A stretch of DNA of 64,000 nucleotides, taken from NCBI RefSeq assembly GCF_006345805.1, contig NC_043008.1:75950001-76014000 (forward strand), read 5' to 3'. How positions within the stretch are numbered: the first letter of the stretch is position 1; each line of letters opens with the position of its first letter. Below the pieces are notes generated by a model. That model was not told the origin of the DNA. It made no database searches and was given only the letters and a program-made list of their open reading frames with translations. This document shows, piece after piece, positions 1,450-47,223 of the stretch. This stretch comes from Octopus sinensis. Lineage: Eukaryota. The translations under genes and the position numbers were made by a program.

Positions 1450-4400
1450 TGTGTCTGTACGTATATGTATATATGCATACATGTGAGTATATATGTACAG
1501 ACACACATGGGTTTGAATGTATTATTTGTAATCATGGTAATTACTATTTAAAAGTGTGTGCAGTTTCTTTTTGTTGTAGATTTCATTCCCCACATATATT
1601 TCTACTTTGCACTTGTATATCTCCATCACCCTGTCTGGGTCTCTTTGTTTCTCCCTTTCTCTTCCTCTTTATATCTTCTGATTCCCTTGCTCTTTTAGAA
1701 ATGCCCTTACTTGTCACCCATGTTTGTAGTGACTGATTTATTAATCCTGATGCTATTTCATTCATTTGCTCTTAAATGTAATAATCATTGTTATTTTTGC
1801 ATTTCTGTTGCAGTTTTCGTACGGAAATGTAATATATCCTGTATAGTTTGGTTTATTTCCTCTCGTTATACTGTCTGAATTAATACGAACAGCGTTATAG
1901 TAATTCTATAACCTGCACAACCTTCTGATGAACCTCATGGGAGTTGATATAATTCAAAGAAATCTGCGAATTTACGATATTTCTGCTGATGATTTATGCG
2001 TTTCCAATGTGTTCTACTATTTCTGACAAGTCACAATGGATTATTTCAACATATCCATTTTGCCATTAGCTTTATTAGCCGTGAATTGTTTGCTGATGGG
2101 TTCACGATTTAAAATAGTTGTCTTCGCTTAGCTTTATCGCTGAAATAGTGTCTCGGCACTATGATTGCCAGATCAACTATCCAGAATTTTATTTACATAT
2201 GCGATGTGATGTCCAGTACACTCACACTTTCGAACTAACAGAGTCCGTATAACTTTCTAGTTAGATATAAACATATATATATATATTTGTCTACGTGCGT
2301 TTGTATGTATATATGTATATGTTTGTACTTATATAACCATCATCAAAGGTCATAATCATTTTCATCACTATCATCATCAAATCAAACTTTCTCGAATTTA
2401 TGACCAAGTGCAGCCGTAGTAAAGTAATATAAATGCATGTCTTATGAGCCCTTCAACCCTTTTCCACCTCTGACGAGATCATGAATATGCGTATGCAAAA
2501 CTGTATGTTCCTCTAATACCCACTGAGCTAAACGACGTACACTCATTCCCGTTGTTTACTCTAAATATCTATTGTGGTTATCTGTTACCTCTTGAATCTT
2601 GAACTTTACTGATGCTACCCGTTTTCCGATATCATTCACCTCCAGAAATTGACCATGAAATTTTAATGTTTGGTATAAGAATGCCTCCAAAGTATTCTCA
2701 GTTTCCTTTTGCTTCAGTACTGTTCGTCGTTCAATCAATGATATTCTCAACAATCGTCTCCAAAGTCATATATCAAATGTGACTAATTTTTTTATCTGGT
2801 TTGTTAGTTGTCTAGTATTCACTTCCACGTAACATTATTGCATACATCAATGGCTGTAATAATCTCCTCTTTGTTCTACGTCCTTATTCTTTATATTTAA
2901 TAATTCACTATAGTAGCTTTATGGTCTTTCAAAATTGGTGTATAATATAACAATGTATATTTTCATCATTCACTATATTTGTTGCTTTTAAAGTCGTTTC
3001 ATACTTGAATATTGTTGTTTTTGTGCGCGTATATAGGCGTTTGAACAAGTATATAAATATATGGCTTTGTATGAGAAAATCGTGAACAATGAAAGGATTC
3101 ATAAACCTACTGACATTTCACCAGTGCATCAAGAAATTTAATAAACTAAATTTAATAAATTACATATAGTTATAATGTCTTGCTGTTATTTCAATGATTT
3201 TAACATTTGCACAAAATAGATGCAGACCAAATTATATATTTAATTATTATTACGCTATTGTCTAACTTACAATATGTTAGATGAGATTAATTTCTATTAT
3301 GTCTTCTATAATACTTTCCTTCATATATTACACGTACATATTCATGAAAATATATCGGTTGCTTTATCTGATACCCATATTTGTATATTCAGATGTTTCA
3401 AGAAATTCTTACACCATGTTATGAATATCAACAGTGTCACTTTTATTCTGAACAGTTTGTATTTAACATGATTACTTATAAATATTCAAACGTGGGAAAA
3501 TATAAAGACATATTCAGATCCCACCTCATTGATATTAATTGCTGTTTGTTTTAACATCACTGGTATACAAGAAATCCAAGTTTGCTCTGTTTTAAACAAG
3601 TTTATTATTGAAGAGGTATAGAGTCTCGGTGTTGGTGAACTGCAATTGAGTAGGAGTTGTTTTGATCTGTGTAATGTGTAATCTTGATTTTAATGTGCGT
3701 TAATTTGCAAATACTTATTAATTGTTTGCTACCCTTTTTCTCTTGATAGCCATATGTGCATCTCTGATTGCATTAAAAATTGAATTACTCTTTGATGAGA
3801 TTCATAAGTCTACTTCACTGACAATTTTAAGAGCAAACTATCTCAAATTCTCACATATTAATATCCGGCAAATTCCCTATAGATAATACATATTCCTAAA
3901 AGCAGAGTGCAATTATTCAAATTTATTTTGGCTTCATTTCAACTGGTGGCTTTCTGGTTAAATGCCACAAATAATTCCAGGGCCTCGCTTCAAAACTTCT
4001 GTTGTGAGGCTTTCACGAAATTTCTGAATAAGTTTATGATTTCAAAATTTTATAGCAACCAAATGTTCTTATACTCTAAGCTTCTGCAATTTCTATATAT
4101 TTATGTGAAACGTATACGTCACTCGCAAAAAAATATGAGAGTTTCATTATAATTTGTAATTTTTCTGTGATATAATGACTATCGCATCCGTTGACAAAAT
4201 GTAATAAATCACACTACAAAACAATTATTCGTCAACTGTACTATACTATATTCCCACACAATTCGTATTCCACTGAACTACACTATACACAAACCAAGTC
4301 ATCCCTTCTTCAACCGTAGTTTACCAACAAACACCAGAGGAACTAGTGGTCAATAGTACTATAATACATACACGCACACAAGGAAATAGCCATTAGTTTA

Positions 4401-10764: not shown

Positions 10765-11855
10765 CAGTAGTATATTTTTATAGCGTGCTTTCACTTCACT
10801 ACCGAGCGCAGCTCTGTGTGCCTTGGGTATGTGCTGTGATTTGTTGTGATGCTCTGATGGTTATTGTATGGAAAGTGTTCTGCGTAGGATGTGTGCAGTG
10901 CCTAGTAGTGCAATTTTCTGTATGTTATATGTGTTTGTAAGTCCTGGTGTTTTTGTTATGTATGTGTCTGAATATTTTTTTATCATGCCTAATGCACCTA
11001 CTATAATAGGAATTGTTTCTGTTTTCAGATTCCACATTCTAATTACCTCTATTTCCACGTCTTTGTATTTTGAGAGTTTCTCCATTTCTTTTAGAGACAC
11101 GTTGTCATCAGCCGGTATTGATACATCAATTAGAAAGCATTTTTTTTCTTCATGATCTCTGACAACTATATCTGGTCTGTTGGCCTTAATTTCTCTATCT
11201 GTGTGTATCGGCATATCCCAGAGTATGGTTGCTTTCTCGTTTTCTGTGACCTTTTCTGGTGTGTGCCTATACCATCTTTTTTCTGTTGTTATTCCATAAT
11301 GTTGGCATAGCTTCCAATGTATGTAGGTTCCAACTCTGTCATGTCTGTGAATATATTCCTGCTTAGCCAGGACTGGGCAGCTAGAGATAATATGATTTAT
11401 TGTTTCTTGTCCATCTCCACATATTCTGCAGTTACTTGTGATATTTCTTTTCATTACATGTTTTTGGTAATCCCTCTGTTTCTGCTTTGAGTCCTGAGCT
11501 TCTCAACCATTGGTGGGATTTTTCTTTGTCTATTTCTTTTGCGTTTAGTTTAGTCCTGTATTTACCATGAAGGGGCTTTTCTTGCCATCGTTTTATCATG
11601 GTTCGTTGCTGTTCTATTTTTGTTTTTAGTTTGGATTTCATTTGTTTTATAGCTTTTGTTGTTTCATCATCTTCTTCTTCTTCTTCATGTTTATTAGGTG
11701 GTATGATTTTTTGTTTGTATTTGTCAGCTTCCTTAAATGCTGAGAACAGTTTTTTGTTTTGCTCGTGTTTTGCCGCTATCTGGATTAGTTTTCCTTCCTT
11801 CTGAAGTAGATATTTTTGCAGTCCTATGGTGGTTATTTTATAGTAGTTTTCCAGT
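10765..11855 (-). mobile_element. R4/Dong-like LINE, subfamily B, 5'-truncated
   Basis: WQEKPLHGKY, WLRSSGLKAETEG, CCHC knuckle CRIC..ETINHIISSC, RHD, RPDIVV..LID..K..KY (RLE endonuclease); (TTA)n on both sides. Confidence 0.92.
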
Positions 11856-11860
11856 ATTAA

Positions 11861-11904
<44 letters not shown>

Positions 11905-12004
11905 TATTATTATTATTATTATTATTATTTTTAATATTACTATTATTATTGTTATCATTATTATTAGTATTATTGTTGTTGCTGCTGCTGTTATCCTTTT
12001 TGCT

Positions 12005-12510
12005 GAGTAAGAAACCAGTGCATGCCATCCAATTGGAATAAAATATACGAAGCTCAATATACCCTTCACTACTACCCGCCTGATGAGGGCACACCAGGGA
12101 CTTGCATCACAAACTTATGTGCGTGACGTATTGATTTCATATCAAAATAAACAGCACATGACCTTACAGATGGGACCCAGTGAGAATTTTCTTCATGTTG
12201 AATAGCCCATCCCGCACTAAAGGTCCCTGAATAAGGGTTATTTAAGGATAATGAACAAAACATTCAGAGGTGAATAATTCAAACCACCAACACATTATTA
12301 TGATGCTCCACCGCTACTCCGGCTAGTGACCAGAGATGCACATATTTTATACCACCAAGGGACATGCTCAATCGATTCTGATTATGCAACTGACATGCAA
12401 ATCTGTGGTTTTAAGAAGAATATTTGCTATAGCCCATCTTTTATACCAAGACAAATCAATGTACATGATAACACTTCCAACCAGTAAGATGAAATGAGAG
12501 CCACTGTCTT
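12005..12510 (-). mobile_element. (TAA)n-associated ~557-bp non-coding element, diverged copy
   Basis: Colinear with the copies at 23325, 40629, 41350, 47356, 55874 and 56781. Confidence 0.85.
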
Positions 12511-24516: not shown

Positions 24517-24984
24517 TTAATGATATTCTACTATCATCTTATTCATTCCTCCAGTGCGTGATGTTAATAACCTGCGAACATATTTCTCCTCATACATACT
24601 GAGAAGTGAAATTGAAACAGATTCAGAATATTTTCTGAGGATATGCACTTTCAATCCTTCTTCAAAATTGCAGCCGCTTGAAACGAAATGTTCAGCAAGT
24701 TCTGTCGAACTACTGACGACGAATCTGTGCCCATTAAACCTTCTGTTTGATTTTTCTGTTCTACAACCAACATAAATTAAGTTGTGTTTTGTGCATTCTG
24801 TAGCGTACACTAAATGGGAATGTTTACATGTTCCACATTCTGTATAACTCATAACACTTCTGTTATGATTTCTGATGGAATTCACTTCACTCATGTTATT
24901 GCACAATGAACAGGGCTTACCTCTCTTGAATAAGAATATAAGAGACTTATTGAACTCTATATCTGACTCCAAGAAAATGAACAT
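24517..24984 (-). mobile_element. Penelope-like element GIY-YIG endonuclease remnant
   Basis: CSLC linker, then CKHSHLVYATECTKHNLIYVGC..RRFNGHR..LAEHF...YEEKY (VY/YVG, catalytic R, H and E). Confidence 0.85.
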
Positions 24985-25019
24985 TGGAGTATCTGCTAAC
25001 TATACCTTAACGAGCAACC

Positions 25020-25695: not shown

Positions 25696-28600
25696 TGTTT
25701 TTTTCTTTCTTTCATCAAATTTTCTTCCGGTTCTCGCCGAGTGTTTTCCATACACCTAGGGCAGAGAAGGGCATTGTATGCATTCCCAGATTAAACACGC
25801 AAATTCAGAGATAAAATATGTATTTAAAAATTAATAAATAAATACATTCATGAATGGATGTTATTTTCACAGCGATAGAGCTCTTCTCAGTACATGAGCC
25901 GTTCCAGTTAATACGATTTTTTGCACTTCCTGTAGGGATGGTAAGCCTGGAATCATTTTCAAATAGCTTTCAGTACCTTTTTTTATCATTCCTAGAGATC
26001 CTACAATCACTGGTACTGTAGTCGCCTTGAAATGCCACATTTTTTTCAATTTCTATTAGCAGGTCTTTATACTTACTAATCTTGTCAAATTCTTTCGCCG
26101 CTAAATTGTGATCACAAGGAATACTCATGTCCATTAACAAACACATCCTTTTTGTCCGATCTTTTATAATAATATCCAGTTTATTAGCTTTTATAGTCCT
26201 GTCGGTCTGCACGAGGAAGTCCCATAGAATCGACACATTTTCTCCCTCAGTCACAGCTTCAGGATGTCAGCGGTTTTGATTTTATAATGCTGACATATTG
26301 TCCAATGTAAATACTGGCCGACTCTGTCATGTCTTGCTTTATATTCTGCAGGTGCTAAGACTCTACACCCTGACATTAGGTGGTCTATTGCTTCAATCTC
26401 ATCGTTACAGAATCGGCATTTTGGGTCAGCTCCATTTTTTATCACATTGGCTTGGTAGTTCCGGGTTAATAAGCTTTGGTCTTGAGCAGCTAATATGAAA
26501 CCTTCACTCTCTGCTTTCAGCCATGAACTTCGTAATAGAGTGAAGTCTTTTAGGTCTTTCATGTTTTGCAACAAGTTTAGCATCCAATCGTTGGTTGCTT
26601 CAAGGTATTTGGCCAGTCCGATTGTGGTGGTTTTGTATGTAAGTTCAAGCTGGATCAAACCTCGGCCTCCCTGAGCTCTGGGAAGGTAAAGGCGATCCAC
26701 GTCTGTCTTTGGATGGTGCATATTATTACAAGTCAGTAGCTTGCAGATTTTTCTGTCAATTTTCATTATTTCACTGGTATTCCAGTTAAGCACATTGAAT
26801 CTATAAAGAACAACTGGTACTGCTAAGGAATTTATGGCTAAAACCTTATTATATACATTCAGCCCAGACTTCAGGACTGCTCGTACTCTTCTATAACAGT
26901 ATTTCCTAACCTTCTCTTTCATGCTTGCATGCTGGATATCAGAGCCTTCATTTATTCCTAGGTATTTATAGGTTTGTTCCTGCTCAAGTTCCTTTATTAC
27001 TATTTCGACATCTAATTCGATTGAACTAGACTTTACCAATTTCCCTTTCTTAAAAATGGCTTTGGCACACTTTTCAAGGCCAAACTTCATCCCGATATCA
27101 TCACTGAATCCTCTCACAGTATGTAATAATCCTTCAAGCTCTTCATCATCTTTGCCATATAGCTTTAGGTCATCCATATAAAATAGATGGCTTATTTTCC
27201 TGTTGTCAATTTTGTAGCCACATCCTGTTCTATTCAGTTCTCTTGAGAGTGGTATTAGTACTATGCAGAAAATTAGTGGTGAAAGTGAGTCACCTTGGAA
27301 AATTCCACAGTTTATGCTAATGTTGTTTGAGTGCAATACTCCATTAGAATGATATAATTGGAGCTTCGTGTTCCATAGTGACATATTATACTTTAAAAAA
27401 TCTGAAATCACAGGAGAAATTTTGAAAATGGCCAGTGGTATCAGAGTCCACGAATGTGATATGCTGTCAAAGGCTTTTTATAATCAATCCATGAAGAGCT
27501 GAGATTTCTACGCTTGTTATGGCAGTTCTCAAGTATCATGCAATTAATTAGGAGCTGATCTTTGCATCCGTATGAGCCTCGTCTGCATCATTTTTGTTCA
27601 GTGGGAAAGAGGTTATTCTTTTCCATAAACGTATATGTCTTCTCTACTAGAATAGATGTCAAGATCTTATATGTAGTAGATAAACATGTTATAGGCCGGT
27701 AATTTTCTGGTTCTTTCATTTTGTTATTTTTGGGGTGGAGATAAGTAATATCATTTGCCATCCAATGGGGCGTTTTTTTCGAGTCTTTCACAACACTATT
27801 AAATAGTATTACTAACATTTTGTGTGCGGACGAGAGTGATGAGAGCCAGAAATTTGGTACTCTATCAATACAAGGGGATTTCCACTTATGAGCTTCCGTT
27901 AGTGCCCTCTTTAGGTCGGCGTTTGAGATGTCTTCCCATCCATGTTCTTGTAGACTTTTGTAGTCATCTTGAGTGCGTTTGATCCACTCTGCAGTTTCAG
28001 TGTATGGCTTCTCATCACTCCAGATCCCCTTCCAAAACTTTTCAACTTCTTCCATTAGGGGTGGAATTTCAATGGTTATTTTTTCTTTCCCTATTTCCCT
28101 GTAAAATGGTTTGGCATTGGATTTGAACATCTTATTTTCTTTGTTGAATTTGATTCTTTTCTCAAATTTGCGTATTCTCTGAGCTTTTGCTTGAACTTTC
28201 TATTTTGTTGAGTGTCCATATTTTCTCACAATCTTCCTGCCTTTTCTTGATCTTACATCATTTCCAAAGATTAGCTCAGTTAATATTGATATCTCCCTTC
28301 GCAATGATTCAATTTGATTTTCTTTTCGAATTTGGTATTGTTGGCTTTTTGGGTGTTAAACAGCGTATTTCGATTACCTTAGCGACAGAGTAAATAATTT
28401 CATTTAATTTATTAAGATCGGGTTTTAGTTGGTGTATGATTTCCTGTGTAACGCAGTTGCCATTTTTTATTTGTGTTTTATGTTGGGGTGCATTTGAGAG
28501 TTTATGGAGTGGTTCCCTATCATTCATAGTTGTATGGTCTACAACTGCAAACTCATTCAGAACTTCTTGTTTCATTTCAATGACAGATTTTCTGTGTTGT

Positions 28601-29290
28601 TCAACAAACATGTGGTCTTCAAATTCTGTTTCGACATCATTTTCCGGGCTGTTTTTTCTAGGGTCATTATACTTTACTTTTTCTTCAGGATCTTGAGTCG
28701 CTTCGGCAGATGGTCGCCTTTCAGACAATGCTTGAGGACCAACTTTCCTCTCCTCAGCTTCGTTATTTCTTCCCTGACTTAAATTTAGGTCATTCTCTAC
28801 CTCTTTTTTAATAGGGGTTAATTCCGCATCTGTGAGTCTAGTATTTCTGCAGATATCTCTTCTAACATTTGCTAATCTGTTTTCATCCAGGTTTGGTCTG
28901 CTAGCTGGATTCCGGCTCCTCCAAATTCTGTAGGAGTTTGCAGTGTGTTTTTCTTGGGTTGGCCTACTTAATGCAAAGTAATAAGCATATATTACTTCTT
29001 TATATTCTTCCCGGTTCCATTTAGTTCTTTTACTTTTTTGATTTTCTGGTCGTTGTGGTGGTGAACTTTGGGGGCTTAATTTGAGACAAATCCCGTTTAA
29101 GTGACCTTCCAGGTTCGTATTCGGGGAAGATATTCTGCCATTTGAACATTTTCCGCCATCAGGCTGGCAGCCTCCTGACGGGCGCGCTTCCTTTATAACC
29201 ATTGGACAAGCGATTCGGTGTACTGTTAGAAATTTTCTTTTCAAGTAAATTTAAATTATTATTAAGTTTTCATTGAAAAGAAAAGAAATA
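25696..29290 (-). mobile_element. R4/Dong-like LINE, subfamily A, near full length, decayed (copy 1)
   Basis: Broken single ORF: RTKWNREEYKEVIYAYY N-terminus, NYRPITCL, GIFQGDSLSPLIF, YMDDLKLY, RLYLPRAQGGRGL, ESEGFILAAQDQ, CCHC, RHD, RLE; 3' UTR runs into an (AAT)n tail. Confidence 0.95.
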
Positions 29291-35504: not shown

Positions 35505-35583
<79 letters not shown>

Positions 35584-35609
35584 GTGTGTTTGTGTGTGTG
35601 TGAAAAAAG

Positions 35610-37150
35610 AAGAAAATGTTGAAATTTACGTATAGACATCAATTTATACAAAGATATTCAAGTTAATGTATGGAATTCCTATTCCTACAGCCGTTTCCAT
35701 TTCAAATTAATTCAATTCTATCAAATCCGATGGTAGGTTTTTGAATACCAATAATCATGAAAAATTAGTTACCTACTTGTATATAATTTGCAGTATTAAT
35801 ATTTTAATATTAATATTTAATATAATATTTTAATATTAATATATCTACTAAGAATGCTTTAATTCTTTACAGTTATAGATGTACTGAACCCGAAATACCG
35901 ACCGATTCAAACTACGAGTAGCTTTAACATATAATTCATTGTTTCAAATATCTAATGGTAGGAACTGAGAGACCATACTCATATTTAAGAAGAACCACCT
36001 GGAAAATAGAATTTGATACAATTCTTCAAGACAGAAAAGTATAATTTCCAATCTTATAAACTGTAGCCTTACTTATAATTTCCGTCTTCCCAGAAAAGAA
36101 CATTGTCCCAAATAAATTTATTGATGCTAGAAGACTTTTCCTATTGTTAAAGATAGATATATGGTTAGGTATTAGTCTCTTGATAAAATTTTGCGTTGCT
36201 CCTACTTAAAAGAAATTCTTCCCTTCAGATTTTACCTTACATTTGTAAACAACATTTTTTTTGTTACAATAATGTTTAAATAAACATTTATTTCTAGCCT
36301 TGCAATCACAAAATAAATCTTCATTACTACTCGTATTAATATTCTGTTTTATATCATTACCTTCAGTATGATTGCTATTTGCTATATTACTTATATTCAA
36401 GAGGTTGAGATGGTATTTAATTTGGGCTGTTTCCCGTTGTATACTAGACGACTCAAGTATACATTACTTATTAACATTTATTCTAAGAGCATTACCCTTG
36501 GTTCATTTACTACGGTTATAATTATCATGAAAATTATACACTTTTTTGTCGTTAATTGATGAAATAACCCGGGACAAATTATCTGACAGAGAAAAGGCAA
36601 CTTTAAGAAGTCTAGGTTTAATAATATCATTAATATCTATTTTACTTTGCAAAGTGTTTATAAAAAAGCTTGTATAATGCTCCGAGAAAATTAGTCTTGA
36701 TTTAGCGAATGGAATTATGAACCAAATAATGTCGTCCTTAATGTCGTTCTTGCATTATAATTTTAAATTTTTCGAACCTTATTGAATATATAAGAAGGTT
36801 GTTTTTTTACTCTAAAACTCATATTCCTAACCGTATGAGGATAATTAGCAGAACGAAGTAAGACACTGGATGTTGTAGTTTGTATATCATTTTTCTCATT
36901 TAACCTTACCCTGTCTCCCGTTACTGGAACTTTGTTTGAAATCTTTACTAACATGATAAAAATCAATGTTGCTAAAGATTCCGATGTTCATATTTTTAGG
37001 ATAATACTTCAACATTCGTTTATATCCAGCTTTGCTGAGTGTCACATTATACAATTCAGCATATTAGACGATAGATTGGAAATTCTTTTAGAGATATTTT
37101 AAACCGAAACATATTTTTACAGAACTGTAATGATTACTTTCGCCATTTAT
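35610..37150 (-). mobile_element. Naiad-like PLE remnant (copy 1)
   Basis: IIWFIIPFAKS; CDCKARNKCLFKHYCNKKNVVYKCKV..VGAT..KRLIPNH; downstream GAAAC GGCT GTA HHR half at ~35686-35697 (minus). Confidence 0.75.
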
Positions 37151-37158
37151 ACGTATAC

Positions 37159-37233
<75 letters not shown>

Positions 37234-37259
37234 GTGTGTTGTGTGTGTGTGAAAAAAGA

Positions 37260-38800
37260 AGAAAATGTTGAAATTTACGTATAGACATCAATTTATACAA
37301 AGATATTCAAGTTAATGTATGGAATTCCTATTCCTACAGCCGTTTCCATTTCAAATTAATTCAATTCTATCAAATCCGATGGTAGGTTTTTGAATACCAA
37401 TAATCATGAAAAATTAGTTACCTACTTGTATATAATTTGCAGTATTAATATTTTAATATTAATATTTAATATAATATTTTAATATTAATATATCTACTAA
37501 GAATGCTTTAATTCTTTACAGTTATAGATGTACTGAACCCGAAATACCGACCGATTCAAACTACGAGTAGCTTTAACATATAATTCATTGTTTCAAATAT
37601 CTAATGGTAGGAACTGAGAGACCATACTCATATTTAAGAAGAACCACCTGGAAAATAGAATTTGATACAATTCTTCAAGACAGAAAAGTATAATTTCCAA
37701 TCTTATAAACTGTAGCCTTACTTATAATTTCCGTCTTCCCAGAAAAGAACATTGTCCCAAATAAATTTATTGATGCTAGAAGACTTTTCCTATTGTTAAA
37801 GATAGATATATGGTTAGGTATTAGTCTCTTGATAAAATTTTGCGTTGCTCCTACTTAAAAGAAATTCTTCCCTTCAGATTTTACCTTACATTTGTAAACA
37901 ACATTTTTTTTGTTACAATAATGTTTAAATAAACATTTATTTCTAGCCTTGCAATCACAAAATAAATCTTCATTACTACTCGTATTAATATTCTGTTTTA
38001 TATCATTACCTTCAGTATGATTGCTATTTGCTATATTACTTATATTCAAGAGGTTGAGATGGTATTAATTTGGGCTGTTTCCCGTTGTATACTAGACGAC
38101 TCAAGTATACATTACTTATTAACATTTATTCTAAGAGCATTACCCTTGGTTCATTTACTACGGTTATAATTATCATGAAAATTATACACTTTTTTGTCGT
38201 TAATTGATGAAATAACCCGGGACAAATTATCTGACAGAGAAAAGGCAACTTTAAGAAGTCTAGGTTTAATAATATCATTAATATCTATTTTACTTTGCAA
38301 AGTGTTTATAAAAAAGCTTGTATAATGCTCCGAGAAAATTAGTCTTGATTTAGCGAATGGAATTATGAACCAAATAATGTCGTCCTTAATGTCGTTCTTG
38401 CATTATAATTTTAAATTTTTCGAACCTTATTGAATATATAAGAAGGTTGTTTTTTTACTCTAAAACTCATATTCCTAACCGTATGAGGATAATTAGCAGA
38501 ACGAAGTAAGACACTGGATGTTGTAGTTTGTATATCATTTTTCTCATTTAACCTTACCCTGTCTCCCGTTACTGGAACTTTGTTTGAAATCTTTACTAAC
38601 ATGATAAAAATCAATGTTGCTAAAGATTCCGATGTTCATATTTTTAGGATAATACTTCAACATTCGTTTATATCCAGCTTTGCTGAGTGTCACATTATAC
38701 AATTCAGCATATTAGACGATAGATTGGAAATTCTTTTAGAGATATTTTAAACCGAAACATATTTTTACAGAACTGTAATGATTACTTTCGCCATTTATAC
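37260..38800 (-). mobile_element. Naiad-like PLE remnant (copy 2)
   Basis: Duplicate of 35610-37150. Confidence 0.75.
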
Positions 38801-38812
38801 GTATACGTGTAT

Positions 38813-38843
<31 letters not shown>

Positions 38844-38933
38844 GTATAAGGGTGAAAAGGAACACACGAGTTGATATATATGAAAAAACAAGTAAAAATA
38901 GAAAATGCTAAAATAATTTTATAGTGAACATTT

Positions 38934-38971
38934 CAGTACCGGTTTCGGTCATTTTGAGACCTTTTCAACTG
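38934..38971 (-). ncRNA. Minimal hammerhead, U3-A8 core variant (left arm)
   Basis: Reverse complement of 39256-39293. Confidence 0.7.
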
Positions 38972-39255
38972 TAACGATTAAATAATTAAATTTAGAAAAA
39001 TTAGAAGAAAAGTTTTTTTAAAAGAATATTTCTATAGTAGTGTTCAGATTTAAGTGGCATTCTGCCTTTCTCTGACTCCCTTGTTTGCACTTGTGTGTTC
39101 GAGGTAGTTGAACACACAACTACCTCGAACACACAAGTGCAAACAAGGGAGTCAGAGAAAGGCAGAATGCCACTTAAATCTGAACACTACTATAGAAATA
39201 TTCTTTTAAAAAAACTTTTCTTCTAATTTTTCTAAATTTAATTATTTAATCGTTA

Positions 39256-39293
39256 CAGTTGAAAAGGTCTCAAAATGACCGAAACCGGTACTG
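39256..39293 (+). ncRNA. Minimal hammerhead, U3-A8 core variant (right arm)
   Basis: CAG-TTGAAAA-GGTC tcaaaat GACC-GAAAC CG GTA-CTG: stem I CAG/CTG, stem II GGTC/GACC, palindromic ACCGGT stem III, GUA site ending at 39290. Confidence 0.7.
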
Positions 39294-39370
39294 AAATGTT
39301 CACTATAAAATTATTTTAGCATTTTCTATTTTTTACTTGTTTTTTCATATATATATATATATATATATAT

Positions 39371-39770
39371 CTTTCTCTTTCTCTTTTACTTGTTTCAGTC
39401 ATTTGACTGCGGCCATGCTGGAGCACCGCCTTTAGTCGAGCAAATCGACCCCAGAACTTATTCTTTGTAAGCCCAGTACTTATTCTATCGGTCTCTTTTG
39501 CCGAACCGCTAAGTAACGGGGACGTAAACACACCAGCATCGGTTGTCAGGCAATGCTAGGGAGACAAACACAGACACACAAACACACACATATATATATA
39601 CATATATACGACAGGCTTCTTTCAGTTTCCGTCTACCAAATCCACTCACAAGGCATTGGTCAGCCCGGGGCTATAGCAGAAGACACTTGCCCAAGATGCC
39701 ACGCAGTGGGACTGAACCCGGAACCATGTGGTTGGTTAGCAAGCTACTTACCACACAGCCACTCCTGCGC
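39371..39770 (-). mobile_element. Full-length CORE-like tRNA-derived SINE
   Basis: Head GCGCAGGAGTGGCTGTGTGGTAAG (A box), GGGTTCAGTCCC (B box), CTTGGGCAAGTG core-like motif, internal (TA)/(TG) tract, AG-rich tail. Confidence 0.9.
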
Positions 39771-39940
39771 TATATATATATACATATAGATACATATATA
39801 TAGTTGAGGTAATGGTGTCATTGAGACCCAAACTTGTCAGGTAATGCTGAATAAGTGCTATAGACAGACCATAATTAAGTTCCAGATTTGGTAAATTTTG
39901 CGAATAAGGGCTTCAACGTTGGTTCTATATCAGCATGTGT

Positions 39941-40340
39941 ATATAAGAATCTTTTGCGTAATCAGATAAAAAGACAAAGGCTGTGTAGATATTAAAACAT
40001 TTATAGATAGAATGTCTTACAGCTGTTTCCAGGATATTTATTAATTATATCCCTTCATCGGAGTAGGTGTGAGAGGATAGTTAAGTCATAGGTAGTGATA
40101 CAAAATAGAGATTGAGGTAGAGCCGCATATCTAGCATCTATTTTCTTTCCTCCATCTCACTCTCTATTTTGTATATCTAAACTAACTATGACTTAACAAC
40201 TCTCTCACACCCTCTCCGAATAAGGGATAAAATTAATAAATATCCTGGAAACAGCTGTAAAACCTTCTATCTATATATGTTCTAATATCTACACAGCCTT
40301 GGGTTTTTTCATCACATTACGCATAAAATTCTTATATATA
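39941..40340. repeat. Diverged inverted repeat (~185-bp arms), each arm with an HHR motif
   Basis: 39941-40122 mirrors ~40150-40340; minus CCGATGA-A-GGGATAT..ATATCCT-G-GAAAC AGCT GTA at 40014-40061; plus copy at 40216-40259. Confidence 0.85.
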
Positions 40341-41878: not shown

Positions 41879-41945
<67 letters not shown>

Positions 41946-41950
41946 CATTA

Positions 41951-44900
41951 TGTTTTTTCCTTCTTTCCTCAAATTTTCTTCCGGTTCTCGCCGAGTGTTT
42001 TCCATACACCTAGGGCAGAGAAGCTCATTTTATGCATTCCCAGATTACACACGCAAATTCACAGACAAGATATGTATTGAAAAATTAATAACTAAATAAA
42101 TTCATGGATGGATGTTGTTTTCACAGCGATAATGCTCTTCTCAGTACATGATCCGTTCCAGTTAATACGATTTTTTGCACTTCATGTAGGGATGGTAAGC
42201 CTGGAATCATTTTCAAATAGCTTTCACTACCTTTTTTTATAATTCCTAGAGATCCTACAATCACTGGTACTGTAGTCGGCTTGAAATGCCACATTTTTTC
42301 AATTTCTATTAGCAGGTCTTTATACTTACTAATCTTGTCAAATCCTTTCGCCGCTATATTGTGATCGAAGGGATACTCATGTCAATTAATAAACACATCT
42401 TTTTTGTCTGATCTTTTATAACAATATCTGGTTTACTAGCTTTTATAGACCTGTCCGTCTGTACGGGGAAGTCCCGTAGAATCGACACATTTTCTCCCTC
42501 AGTCACAGCTTCAGGATGGTGTTGATTCCATTTGTCAGCGGTTTTGATTTTATAATGCCGACATATTGTCCAATGTAAATACTAGCCGACTCTGTCATTT
42601 CTTGCTTTATATTCTGCAGGTGCTAAGACTCTACACCCTGAGATTAGGTGGTCTATTTTTTTAATCTCATCGTTACAGAATCGGCATTTTGGGTCAGCTC
42701 CATTTTTTATCACATTGGCTTGGTAGTTCCGGGTTAACAAGCTTTGGTCTTGAGCAGCTAATATGAAACCTTCACTCTCTGCTTTTAGCCCTGAGCTTCG
42801 TAACCATCGGTGCGCGTGTTTCTGGTCAACATCAGCTTGTTTGCTACGGGCCACATACTTGCCATAGAGAGGTTTCTGTCCCCATCTGCTAGCTAATTTT
42901 TCACGTGCTTTTGTCTTTGCAATTAATTTTCTTTTCTTTGCAGCTGCAGTTGGCGCATTTCTGGTGGGTATCTAAGAGATCAGCAGCGAATTTGTTGCTC
43001 TCCTTGACAATAGAGTGAAGTTTCTCAGGTCTTTCATGTTTTGAAACAAGTTTTAGCATCCAATCGTTGGTTGCTTCAAGGTATTTGGCCAGTCCGATTG
43101 TGGTGGTTTTGTATGTAAGTTCAAGCTGGATCACACCCCGGCCTCCCTGAGCTCTGGGAAGGTAAAGGCGATCCACGTCTGCCTTTGGATGGTGCATCTT
43201 ATTACAAGTCAGTAGCTTGCGGATTTTTCTGTCAATTTTTATTGTTTTAATGGTATTCCAGTTAAACGTTGAAGCTATAAAGAACAACTGGTACTGCTAA
43301 GGAATTTATGGCTAAAACCTTATTATATGCATTCAGCTCAGACTTCAGGACTGCTCGTACTCTTCTATAACATTCCTTCCTAACCTTCTCTTTCATGCTT
43401 GCATGCTGGATACCAGAGCATTCAGTTATTCCAAGGTATTTATAGGTCTGTTCCTGCTCAAGTTTCTTTGTTACTGTTTCGACATCTAATTCCATTGAAC
43501 TAGACTTTACCAATTTCCCTTTCTTAAAAATGGCTTTGGCACACTTTTCAAGGCCAAACTCCATCCCGATATCATCACTGAATCCTTTCACGGTATGTAA
43601 TAATCTTTCAAGCTCTTCGTTATTTGTACCATACAGCTTTAAATCATCCTTATAAAGTAGATGGCTTATTTTCCTGTTGTCAATTTTGTAGCCATATCCT
43701 ATTCTATTCAGTTCACTTGAGAGTAGTATTAGTGCTATGCAGAAAATTAGTGGTGAAAGTGAGTCACCTTGGAAAATTCCACAGTTTATGCTAATGTTTT
43801 TTGAGCGCAATACTCCATTCAAATGATATAATTGGAGATTCGTGTTCCATAGTGATATATTATACTTTAAAAAATCTGAAATCACAGGAGAAAGTTTGAA
43901 ACTGGCCAACGATTTCAAAATCTACGAATGCGGTATGCTGTCAAAGGCTTTTTTATAATCAATCCATGAAGAGCTGAGATTTCTGCGCTTGTTACGGCAG
44001 TTCTCAAGGAACATGCGATTAATTAGGAGCTGATCTTTGCATCCGTATGAGCCTCGTCTACATCCTTTTTGTTCAGTGTGAAACGTATGTTTTCTCTACT
44101 AGAATAGACGTCAAATCTTATGGTAGTAGATAATCAGGTTATAGGCCGGTAGTTTTTTGGGTCTTTCGTTTTGTTATTTTCGGGGAGGAGATAAGTAATA
44201 CCATTTGCCATCTTCGAGTCTGTCATAATACTATTAAATAGTATTACTAATATTTTGTGTTCGGACGAGAGTTATGAGAGCCAGAAATTTGGTACTCTAT
44301 CAATACAAGGGGATTTCTACTTATAAGCCTTCGTTAGTGCCCTCCTTATGTCGGCGATTGAGATGTTTTCCCACACCTGTTCTTATAGACTTTTGTAGTC
44401 ATCTTGAGTGCGTTTGATCCACTCTGCAGTTTCATTGTATGGTTTCTCATCACTCCAGATCCCCTTCCAAAACTTTTCAACTTCTCCCATTAGGGGTGGA
44501 TTTTCAATGGTTATTTTTTTCTTTCCCTATTTCCCTGTAAAATTTTTTGGCATTGGATTTGAACATCTTATTTTGTTTGTAGAATTTGATTCTTTTCTCA
44601 AATCTGCGTATTCTCTGAGCTTTTGCTTGAACTTTCTATTTAAGTGTTTCTTTCGCTGACATTAGTTCATCTATTGTTGAGTGTCCATATTTTCTCACAA
44701 TCCTCCTGCCTTTTCTTGATCTTACATCATTTCCAGAGATTAGCTCAGTTAATATTGATATCTCCCTTCGCAATGATTCAATTTTAGTTTCAATTCTACT
44801 CCTCCAGTTTGATTTTCTTTTCGAATTTGGTATTGTTGGCTTTTTGGGTGTTAAGCATCGTCTTTTGATTACCTTAGCCACAGAGTTAATAATTTGATTT

Positions 44901-45510
44901 AATTTATTAAGATGTTTTTTCTACGGTCATTATACTTTACTTTTTCTTCAGGATCTTGAGTCGCTTCGGCAGATGGTCGCCTTTCAGACAATGCTTGTGG
45001 TCCAAAATTCCTCTCCTCAACTTCGTTATTTCTTTCCTGACTTAAATTTAGGTCACTCTCTACATCTTTTTTAATAGAGGTTAATTATGCATCTGTGAGT
45101 CTGGTATTTCTGCAGATATCTCTTCTAACATTTGCTAATCTGTTTTCATCCAGGTTTGGTCTGCTAGCTGGAACCCGGCTCCTCCATATTCTGTAGGAGT
45201 TTGTTGTGTGTTTTTCTTGGGTTGGCCTACTTAATGCAAAGTAATAAGCATATATTACTTCTTTATATTCTTCCCGGTTCCATTTAGTTCTTTTACTTTT
45301 TTGATTTTCTGGTCGTTGTGGTGGTGAATTTTGGGGGCTTAATTTGAGACAAATCCCGTTTAAGTGACCTTCCAGATTCGTTTTCGCGGAAGAGATTCTG
45401 CCATTATACAGGCGCGCTTCCTGTATAATCATTGGACATGCGATTCGGTGTACTGTTAGAAATTTTCTTTTCAAGAAAAGTTAAATTATTATTAAATTTT
45501 CATTTTAAAA
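41951..45510 (-). mobile_element. R4/Dong-like LINE, subfamily A, near full length, decayed (copy 2)
   Basis: ORF fragments 45085, 44636, 43262, 42901 and 42582 are homologous to copy 1; RT YKDD (mutated), CCHC, RLE; (AAT)n tail. Confidence 0.95.

Positions 45511-46342: not shown

Positions 46343-47223
<881 letters not shown>

What the first reader, a model, noticed from the sequence alone, without database searches (positions are those of the whole stretch)
38875..39356. Near-perfect palindrome bearing hammerheads with a compensatory U3-A8 core (UUGAAAA)
Seen: each arm has stem I, stem II, GAAA, a palindromic stem III and a GUA triplet in correct HHR geometry, but the first box reads TTGAAAA instead of CTGANGA. 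Established: C3 and G8 form a Watson-Crick tertiary pair in the active hammerhead, so U3+A8 preserves it. Inference: a covarying rather than decayed core, which CUGANGA-based searches would miss. The 6-bp-spacer palindrome looks like a very young inverted pseudo-LTR pair and could form a cruciform or dsRNA.
Basis: partly seen in the sequence, partly recalled or inferred. Interest (0 to 1): 0.8.

Follow-up and report, generated by a model that had tools for sequence, protein, structure and literature searches.

The report
Head-to-head Penelope retrotransposon ends, known hammerhead
This palindrome is two short, back-to-back ends of a young Penelope-type jumping gene that has over a thousand copies in this animal genome, and its 'unusual' self-cutting RNA motif is a variant already in print that likely cannot fold at this spot.

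Summary
The palindrome and both TTGAAAA hammerheads are real. They are two 5'-truncated 3' ends of a young Penelope-like element (RT plus C-terminal GIY-YIG), joined head-to-head in (TA)n. Only the left end carries the 30-nt PLE 'tail'.

U3-A8 is the family norm, not decay: 1,692 of 1,703 exact motif copies, none C3-G8. A separate hammerhead repeat in this genome shows both states (58 U3-A8, 35 C3-G8, 7 mixed of 100 listed).

None of this is new. Perreault 2011 reported natural U3-A8. Cervera 2014 found about 1,300 in Schistosoma PLEs, plus opposite-strand pairs. Arkhipova 2013 described palindromic junctions and tails.

Added here: 58 of 83 mappable tail-anchored insertions are head-to-head, none with two free tails, and 20 of 58 join within 25 nt of symmetry against 4.7 by chance, with either arm longer. 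This favours priming from both target ends over one fold-back. The two ribozymes lie on opposite strands and are predicted to be locked in the hairpin. Reads neither confirmed nor refuted this junction. Low interest.

The parts
38810..38843 (.). (TA)n microsatellite, left side of the target site
   Evidence: sequence; TA run follows the tail in 53 of 56 mapped insertions
38844..38873 (-). 30-nt PLE 'tail', on the left end only
   Evidence: 1,069 exact tail matches genome-wide; in full-length copy L031 it precedes the ORF start
38874..39110 (-). Left arm: 5'-truncated 3' end (pseudo-LTR part) of the Penelope-like element, pointing left
   Evidence: 99.6% to the 3' end of natural copy L031
38934..38971 (-). 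Minimal type I hammerhead motif, U3 at 38968, A8 at 38963, GUA triplet
39111..39116 (.). Spacer AACACA. The last CA continues the right arm; the rest is either one substitution against the family's AACTCA allele or a short templated slip from GAACACACAA 10 nt downstream
   Evidence: no AACACA allele among 74 occurrences of this site in fetched loci, some overlapping
39117..39354 (+). Right arm: 5'-truncated 3' end of the same element, tail-less, pointing right
   Evidence: 40 of 40 scored genomic places 100% identical over 39117-39345
39256..39293 (+). Minimal type I hammerhead motif: stem I 39256-58/39291-93, U3 39259, A8 39264, stem II 39266-69/39277-80, GAAA 39281-84, palindromic ACCGGT 39284-89, A17 39290
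39355..39369 (.). (TA)n microsatellite, right side of the target site
   Evidence: sequence; TA-like run beyond the tail-less end in 50 of 52

Best explanation
The palindrome is a head-to-head insertion of two 5'-truncated 3' ends of a young Penelope-like retrotransposon in a (TA)n repeat, likely made when both ends of the cut target primed reverse transcription of the same RNA, and its U3-A8 hammerhead is the family's inherited, already published variant. Shown: element identity, family-wide U3-A8, one tail per insertion, TA targets, excess of near-symmetric junctions. Inferred: the GIY-YIG domain cuts both strands; one end primes at the tail and the other about 30 nt inside; the two cDNAs stop near the same point and are joined there. 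The ribozyme would work only as a dimer through its ACCGGU palindrome, in tandem or trans copies, probably slowly and with protein help. At this locus a read-through RNA is predicted to bury it in the long hairpin, so this copy is likely a dead-on-arrival insertion.
For: Copies run upstream into an ORF with RVT_1 (E 7.5e-8, above cutoff) and GIY-YIG (E 0.0019, below cutoff) matches, YLDD and a CX4CX2C linker; unit 4.4 kb between direct hammerheads in L031. U3-A8 in 1,692 of 1,703. Of 100 tails: 58 head-to-head, 25 with no adjacent inverted arm, 12 unmapped, 4 internal, 1 duplicate. Of the 58: second arm tail-less in 52, continuing into the ORF in 4, unmapped in 2, never a second free tail. 20 of 58 junctions within 25 nt of symmetry vs 4.7 +/- 1.9 (0 of 20,000 permutations); 11 of 45 vs 1.7 outside the truncation hotspot. 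The tail-less arm is the longer one in 9 of 20 symmetric and 21 of 38 asymmetric cases, and in this window; one fold-back of a tailed strand cannot give that without later deletion. In vitro an Anolis PLE cuts and extends both strands from two start sites that bracket the tail (PMC11167929). Folding: hammerhead bases paired with probability 0.999 in the palindrome transcript, P(G10.1-C11.1) 4e-19.
Against: No read spans this junction: Logan contigs break at the repeat and the raw-read run laid only 4 reads. Central deletions in palindromes could also make either arm longer after a fold-back (established palindrome instability; recalled, not tested). Private variants shared by both arms are somewhat more common in symmetric insertions (6 in 3,303 sites vs 2 in 5,994; p 0.027), as copy-back or gene conversion predicts. 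Six of the 20 symmetric junctions have equal arms, two of them with 13-18 nt of overlap, which suits fold-back at a natural hairpin. No cleavage or expression data. The sample is anchored on tails, so insertions without a tail were not counted.
Confidence: 0.8

Rival explanations
1. Same element, but the palindrome arose by self-priming: one strand (cDNA or antisense RNA) folded back at its 3' end and copied itself, as proposed for PLE palindromes by Arkhipova et al. 2013.
For: Strong excess of near-symmetric junctions (20 of 58 vs 4.7); six with equal arms; weak excess of shared private variants in symmetric insertions; PMC3846280 discussion.
Against: The copied arm cannot gain a tail that its template lacks, so the tailed arm should carry the loop. 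It does in only 5 of 20 symmetric cases and not in this window. It does not explain the 21 asymmetric cases with a much longer tail-less arm.
Confidence: 0.3
2. The palindrome at this locus is a read fold-back or assembly artefact.
For: Junction not confirmed in reads; a 1.65-kb tandem duplicate at 99.5% abuts the left flank, a possible sign of local misassembly.
Against: A folded-back read would mirror everything, but the flanks differ and only one arm has the tail. The same one-tail architecture recurs in 52 of 58 insertions with junctions at many positions.
Confidence: 0.05
3. The motif is a catalytically dead or nearly dead relic: with U3 and A17 the core is trapped by a U3-A17 pair, like the C3-G17 trap, and the sequence is kept for protein binding.
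For: RNAfold minimum-energy monomer and dimer pair U3 with A17 (dimer -27.1 vs -20.7 kcal/mol for the hammerhead fold). The C3-G17 trap is described in PMC3884650. PLE minimal hammerheads cleave weakly, and cleavage was not needed for insertion in vitro.
Against: U3-A8 cores are reported active in vitro (PMC3088659 citing Przybilski and Hammann 2007). All core positions, stem II and the palindrome are kept in several divergent families here. G17 variants still cleave, 8- to 100-fold slower.
Confidence: 0.25
4. A palindromic MITE-like or foldback element of its own.
For: Long terminal inverted repeats, small size.
Against: Junction position varies from copy to copy over about 4 kb, and arms run into an RT-EN ORF elsewhere; only 1 of 30 fetched identical copies had a junction near this one.
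Confidence: 0.02

Closest known systems
U3-A8 minimal hammerheads of Schistosoma mansoni Cercyon PLEs (Cervera and de la Pena 2014, PMC4209133)
   Same: U3-A8 core in PLE ends, over a thousand copies, G10.1-C11.1 pair, palindromic helix III region, opposite-strand pairs 100-700 bp apart.
   Different: Here stem II is 4 bp (7-8 there), there is no extra base after A9, and copies are nearly identical rather than heterogeneous.
Natural U3-A8 hammerhead core variants (Perreault et al. 2011, PMC3088659)
   Same: Same compensatory change at the 3-8 pair, described as active in vitro.
   Different: A few examples there; here it is fixed in a high-copy retrotransposon family and paired with A17.
Neptune/Nematis clade EN+ Penelope-like elements (Craig et al. 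2021, PMC8557442)
   Same: RT then C-terminal GIY-YIG, CX2-5CxxC linker, (TA)n targets, inverted 5'-truncated copy, 30-40 bp tail at one end, hammerhead near the 3' end.
   Different: Clade not placed by phylogeny here; this locus keeps only about 240 nt per arm.
Adineta vaga Penelope palindromic junctions (Arkhipova et al. 2013, PMC3846280)
   Same: Head-to-head inverted pLTRs, palindrome at the junction, optional tail on one arm.
   Different: They infer self-priming from few copies; 58 insertions here show either arm longer, which fits two primed ends better.
PAc Poseidon element in vitro (Frangieh et al. 2024, PMC11167929)
   Same: Both strands cut and extended, two RT start sites bracketing the tail, AT-rich target.
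   Different: C3-G8 core lying at the ORF start; here the hammerhead ends before the tail and the ORF.

Membership tests
EN+ Penelope-like element | RT domain followed by C-terminal GIY-YIG endonuclease | tested here: met
   In longer copies of the family, not at this locus: RVT_1 E 7.5e-8 above cutoff; GIY-YIG E 0.0019, 18.9 bits, below the 22.6 cutoff; YLDD and QYIGQT motifs
EN+ Penelope-like element | Pseudo-LTRs in direct or inverted arrangement, 5' truncation | tested here: met
   Direct pair 4.4 kb apart in L031; inverted pairs in 58 of 83 mappable insertions
EN+ Penelope-like element | 30-40 bp tail at one end | tested here: met
   38844-38873; 1,069 copies; no insertion with two free tails among 58
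EN+ Penelope-like element | RT phylogeny sister to telomerase | not tested
   No tree built; no named reference RTs were fetched
Neptune/Nematis clade | CX2-5CxxC linker between RT and EN, plus two cysteines inside GIY-YIG | tested here: met
   KCGRPNCGIC at about residue 650 and CSGC at 694 of the 784-aa frame in L032; definition
Neptune/Nematis clade | Placement in Neptune rather than Nematis by tree | not tested
   No phylogeny run
Type I minimal hammerhead ribozyme | Canonical core C3 U4 G5 A6 N7 G8 A9 ... G12 A13 A14 A15.1, U16.1 H17 | tested here: not met
   C3 and G8 replaced by U3 and A8; all other positions match; no Rfam hammerhead hit
Type I minimal hammerhead ribozyme | Watson-Crick pair between positions 3 and 8 (published U3-A8 variant) | tested here: met
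   1,692 of 1,703 copies; covariation in a separate repeat family; literature
Type I minimal hammerhead ribozyme | Stems I and II, palindromic helix III for dimer formation | tested here: met
   3 bp, 4 bp, ACCGGT; dimer fold -20.7 kcal/mol, monomer with helix III closed -0.2
Type I minimal hammerhead ribozyme | Self-cleavage 3' of position 17 | not testable with these tools
   No RNA raw reads laid; needs an in vitro assay
Non-LTR retrozyme | Tandem short non-coding units each with a canonical type I hammerhead | tested here: not met
   Inverted, not tandem, and part of a coding 4.4-kb element

The most novel reading that the evidence does not exclude
Penelope head-to-head insertions are made by a coupled pair of reverse transcriptases that prime from both cut target ends on one RNA, one at the tail and one just inside it, and stop together. 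The one-tail rule and the third of junctions that are nearly symmetric with either arm longer are the genomic footprint of this. In addition, the U3-A8 core with A17 acts as a built-in brake that the element's protein releases.
Probability: 0.3. Interest if true: 0.5.

Novelty: new member of a known kind. Interest (0 to 1): 0.2.

Why it matters
The headline claim, a U3-A8 hammerhead in an inverted Penelope end, has been in print since 2011-2014, so the locus itself adds little. The value is as a data set. A very young family with about 1,000 insertions lets one count the geometry of inverted PLE junctions, which Craig et al. 2021 list as an open mechanistic question. A genome with several U3-A8 families, one caught in both states, offers natural pairs for measuring what the swap costs.

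Tried and rejected
Rfam scan of the whole window: no hammerhead family at E<=1. Read check: contigs of X1, X2 and X4 cover the arms but break at repeats, with no record spanning the junction; raw-read run X24 laid 4 reads, none on the element, so it is uninformative. Two look-ups of earlier scan findings returned nothing. Three paper ids were not held, so Przybilski and Hammann 2007 is known only through PMC3088659 and PMC3884650, and Lunse et al. 2017 is recalled only. The 1,078 hits are not a clean covariation test: many matched through an upstream TTGAGAA rather than the real core. Rejected: decay of a C3-G8 core (0 of 1,703 C3-G8), palindromic MITE, retrozyme for this locus, cis-dimer of the two motifs. 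A target-site duplication cannot be read inside (TA)n. No protein fold or large protein search was run; the domain match sufficed.

Full report
OBSERVATION. The window holds an inverted repeat with arms 38883-39110 and 39117-39344 and a 6-nt spacer. The arms pair perfectly for 217 bp and then differ by one base in a T run. A window-wide scan found two hammerhead-shaped motifs, U3 at 39259 (+) and 38968 (-), each with a 3-bp stem I, TTGAAAA, a 4-bp stem II closed by G10.1-C11.1, GAAA, the palindrome ACCGGT and a GUA triplet. Rfam reports no hammerhead at E<=1.

WHAT IT BELONGS TO. The right arm gave 856 candidates in the 2.7-Gb own genome; the 40 scored were all 100% identical over 229 nt. Of the 30 fetched, 29 continue upstream into element sequence instead of folding back, and one (L016) folds back near the same point. 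Longer copies carry an ORF with RT and C-terminal GIY-YIG. L032 has a 784-aa frame (RVT_1 E 7.5e-8; GIY-YIG E 0.0019, below cutoff) with YLDD, CX4CX2C and CSGC motifs. L031 has hammerheads 4.4 kb apart in direct orientation, with the extension just before the ORF start; its ORF is broken across several frames. By the definitions in PMC8557442 (introduction and passages read) this is an EN+ Penelope-like element of Neptune/Nematis type, and the extension is the PLE 'tail'. No tree was built.

THE CORE. With positions 3 and 8 left free, the 34-nt motif has 1,703 exact copies, control 0. Four lack A8 (2 U3-G8, 2 U3-U8), seven lack U3 (6 C3-A8, 1 G3-A8), none is C3-G8; so 1,692 of 1,703 are U3-A8. 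Exact matching selects young copies. No other letter at these positions reached 5% in contigs of runs labelled as three organisms. This is inheritance from the source element. Covariation is visible in a separate repeat of about 360 bp (297 hits): of the first 100 listed, by hand count, 58 are U3-A8, 35 C3-G8, 6 C3-A8 and 1 U3-G8 (Fisher p 1e-19, but copies are related and may reflect one or two events). A third family, tied to a related RT-EN (40-60% identity), has U3-A8 in 100 of 100 listed of 385.

PRIOR ART. PMC3088659 (passages read) states that C3 and G8 covary to U3 and A8 in several natural hammerheads and that such cores were already shown active in vitro. PMC4209133 (parts 1-2 of 4 read: results and discussion) reports U3-A8 in Schistosoma Cercyon PLEs, missed by their first descriptor, about 1,300 hits, and opposite-strand pairs 100-700 bp apart; a minimal motif cleaved weakly and only as dimer or trimer. 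PMC3846280 (passages) describes palindromes at head-to-head junctions, the tail on one arm, and proposes self-priming. PMC11167929 (parts 1-2 of 4) shows both-strand cleavage and extension, two RT starts bracketing the tail, protein-assisted ribozyme cleavage, and no need of cleavage for insertion. PMC3884650 (passages) gives the C3-G17 trap. PMC7229834 (passages) and bioRxiv 10.64898/2026.07.22.740005 (part 1 of 5) cover retrozymes. No supplements were opened; supplementary alignments of PMC4209133 and PMC8557442 may already list this family. Seven searches showed no paper counting junction symmetry or naming two-ended priming for PLEs; the library lacks most subscription journals.

GEOMETRY OF INSERTIONS. 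The tail has 1,069 exact copies. The first 100 were mapped to natural copy L031: 58 head-to-head, 25 without an adjacent inverted arm, 12 not mapped, 4 internal, 1 tandem duplicate. Among the 58 the second arm ends without a tail in 52, runs on into the ORF in 4, was not reached in 2, and never carries a second free tail. The two 5' ends lie within 25 nt of each other in 20 of 58, against 4.7 +/- 1.9 when partners are shuffled (0 of 20,000). The excess holds for high-identity copies (12 of 34 vs 2.5) and outside the truncation hotspot where this locus lies (11 of 45 vs 1.7). So the window's palindrome is a common class. Among symmetric cases the tailed arm is longer in 5, the tail-less arm in 9, equal in 6; among asymmetric ones 17 and 21. 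Here the tail-less arm carries the spacer.

MECHANISM. Shown: identity, counts, geometry. Inferred: both target ends prime reverse transcription, one at the tail and one just inside, and the cDNAs are joined head-to-head; near-symmetry would arise when both stop at the same place on one RNA or the second jumps onto the end of the first. A single fold-back predicts that the tailed arm always carries the loop, which fails in about half of cases unless central deletions followed. In favour of fold-back, shared private variants are weakly enriched in symmetric insertions (6 in 3,303 vs 2 in 5,994 sites, p 0.027). For the ribozyme, helix III cannot close in a monomer (-0.2 kcal/mol) but can in a dimer (-20.7); the lowest-energy dimer (-27.1) pairs U3 with A17, a possible brake. 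In a transcript through the palindrome the motif is paired with probability 0.999, so this copy likely gives dsRNA, not cleavage, if transcribed. Transcription was not shown.

ARTEFACT CHECK. Reads were inconclusive. Different flanks, the one-sided tail and the recurrence of the same architecture argue for a real insertion; a 99.5% tandem duplicate next door is a caution about local assembly.

VERDICT. Observation confirmed, interpretation largely right, novelty low: a new member of a known kind, interest 0.2. The junction statistics are the only part that may be new.

Noticed in passing
L048-L053, L206-L217 (for example G000:C1:737672-737702): A related Penelope-like family (385 exact pattern hits) has a U3-A8 hammerhead with a 7-bp stem I but only a 1-2 bp stem II (G, 5-7 bases, C); loop letters vary while the closing G-C is kept. 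Its loci match the RT-EN protein at 40-60%. PMC3088659 mentions a single 1-bp stem II case.
   Followed up: partly
L055, L108-L133: A repeat of about 360 bp, often tandem, with a GUC-triplet type I hammerhead, retrozyme-like, present as C3-G8 and U3-A8 sublineages plus a C3-A8 lineage (6 of 100). G8 sits in a CpG in the C3-G8 form, so CpG decay followed by compensation is a possible route (inference).
   Followed up: partly
L061, L064, L066: A further U3-A8 family (TTGATAA core, GAT...ATC stem II, GUA triplet) ending near (TA)n; U3 together with A17 recurs in the AT-rich families.
   Followed up: no
window 35511-37202 and 37162-38848: 1.65-kb tandem duplicate at 99.5% identity, bounded by TA/GT microsatellites, directly left of the palindrome; recent duplication or assembly artefact. 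Similar duplicates occur at L018, L021/L022 and L076.
   Followed up: no
L031 element coordinates 4105-4160 (window about 39100-39155): 5' truncation hotspot: 28 of 116 arm ends fall in this 55-nt stretch, just 3' of a C-rich, pyrimidine-rich tract.
   Followed up: no
window 39370-39580: Extremely high-copy short repeat right of the palindrome (depth 100 times that of the element in three runs), SINE-like by recall, not identified by a call.
   Followed up: no
window 39940-40338: Second, older inverted repeat (129-nt arms at 88%, extending to about 200 nt at 81%), MITE-like.
   Followed up: no
window 24517-24999 (-): Frame with a YVG and cysteine pattern that looks like an old GIY-YIG remnant; no Pfam match at 0.01 and no tblastn match to this family's protein.
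   Followed up: partly
window 26251-29250 (-), 41888-45480 (-), 10861-12106 (-), 46673-47122 (-): Several broken copies of non-LTR retrotransposon-like reading frames, including two about 90% identical 3.5-kb copies; class judged by eye from RT-like motifs.
   Followed up: no
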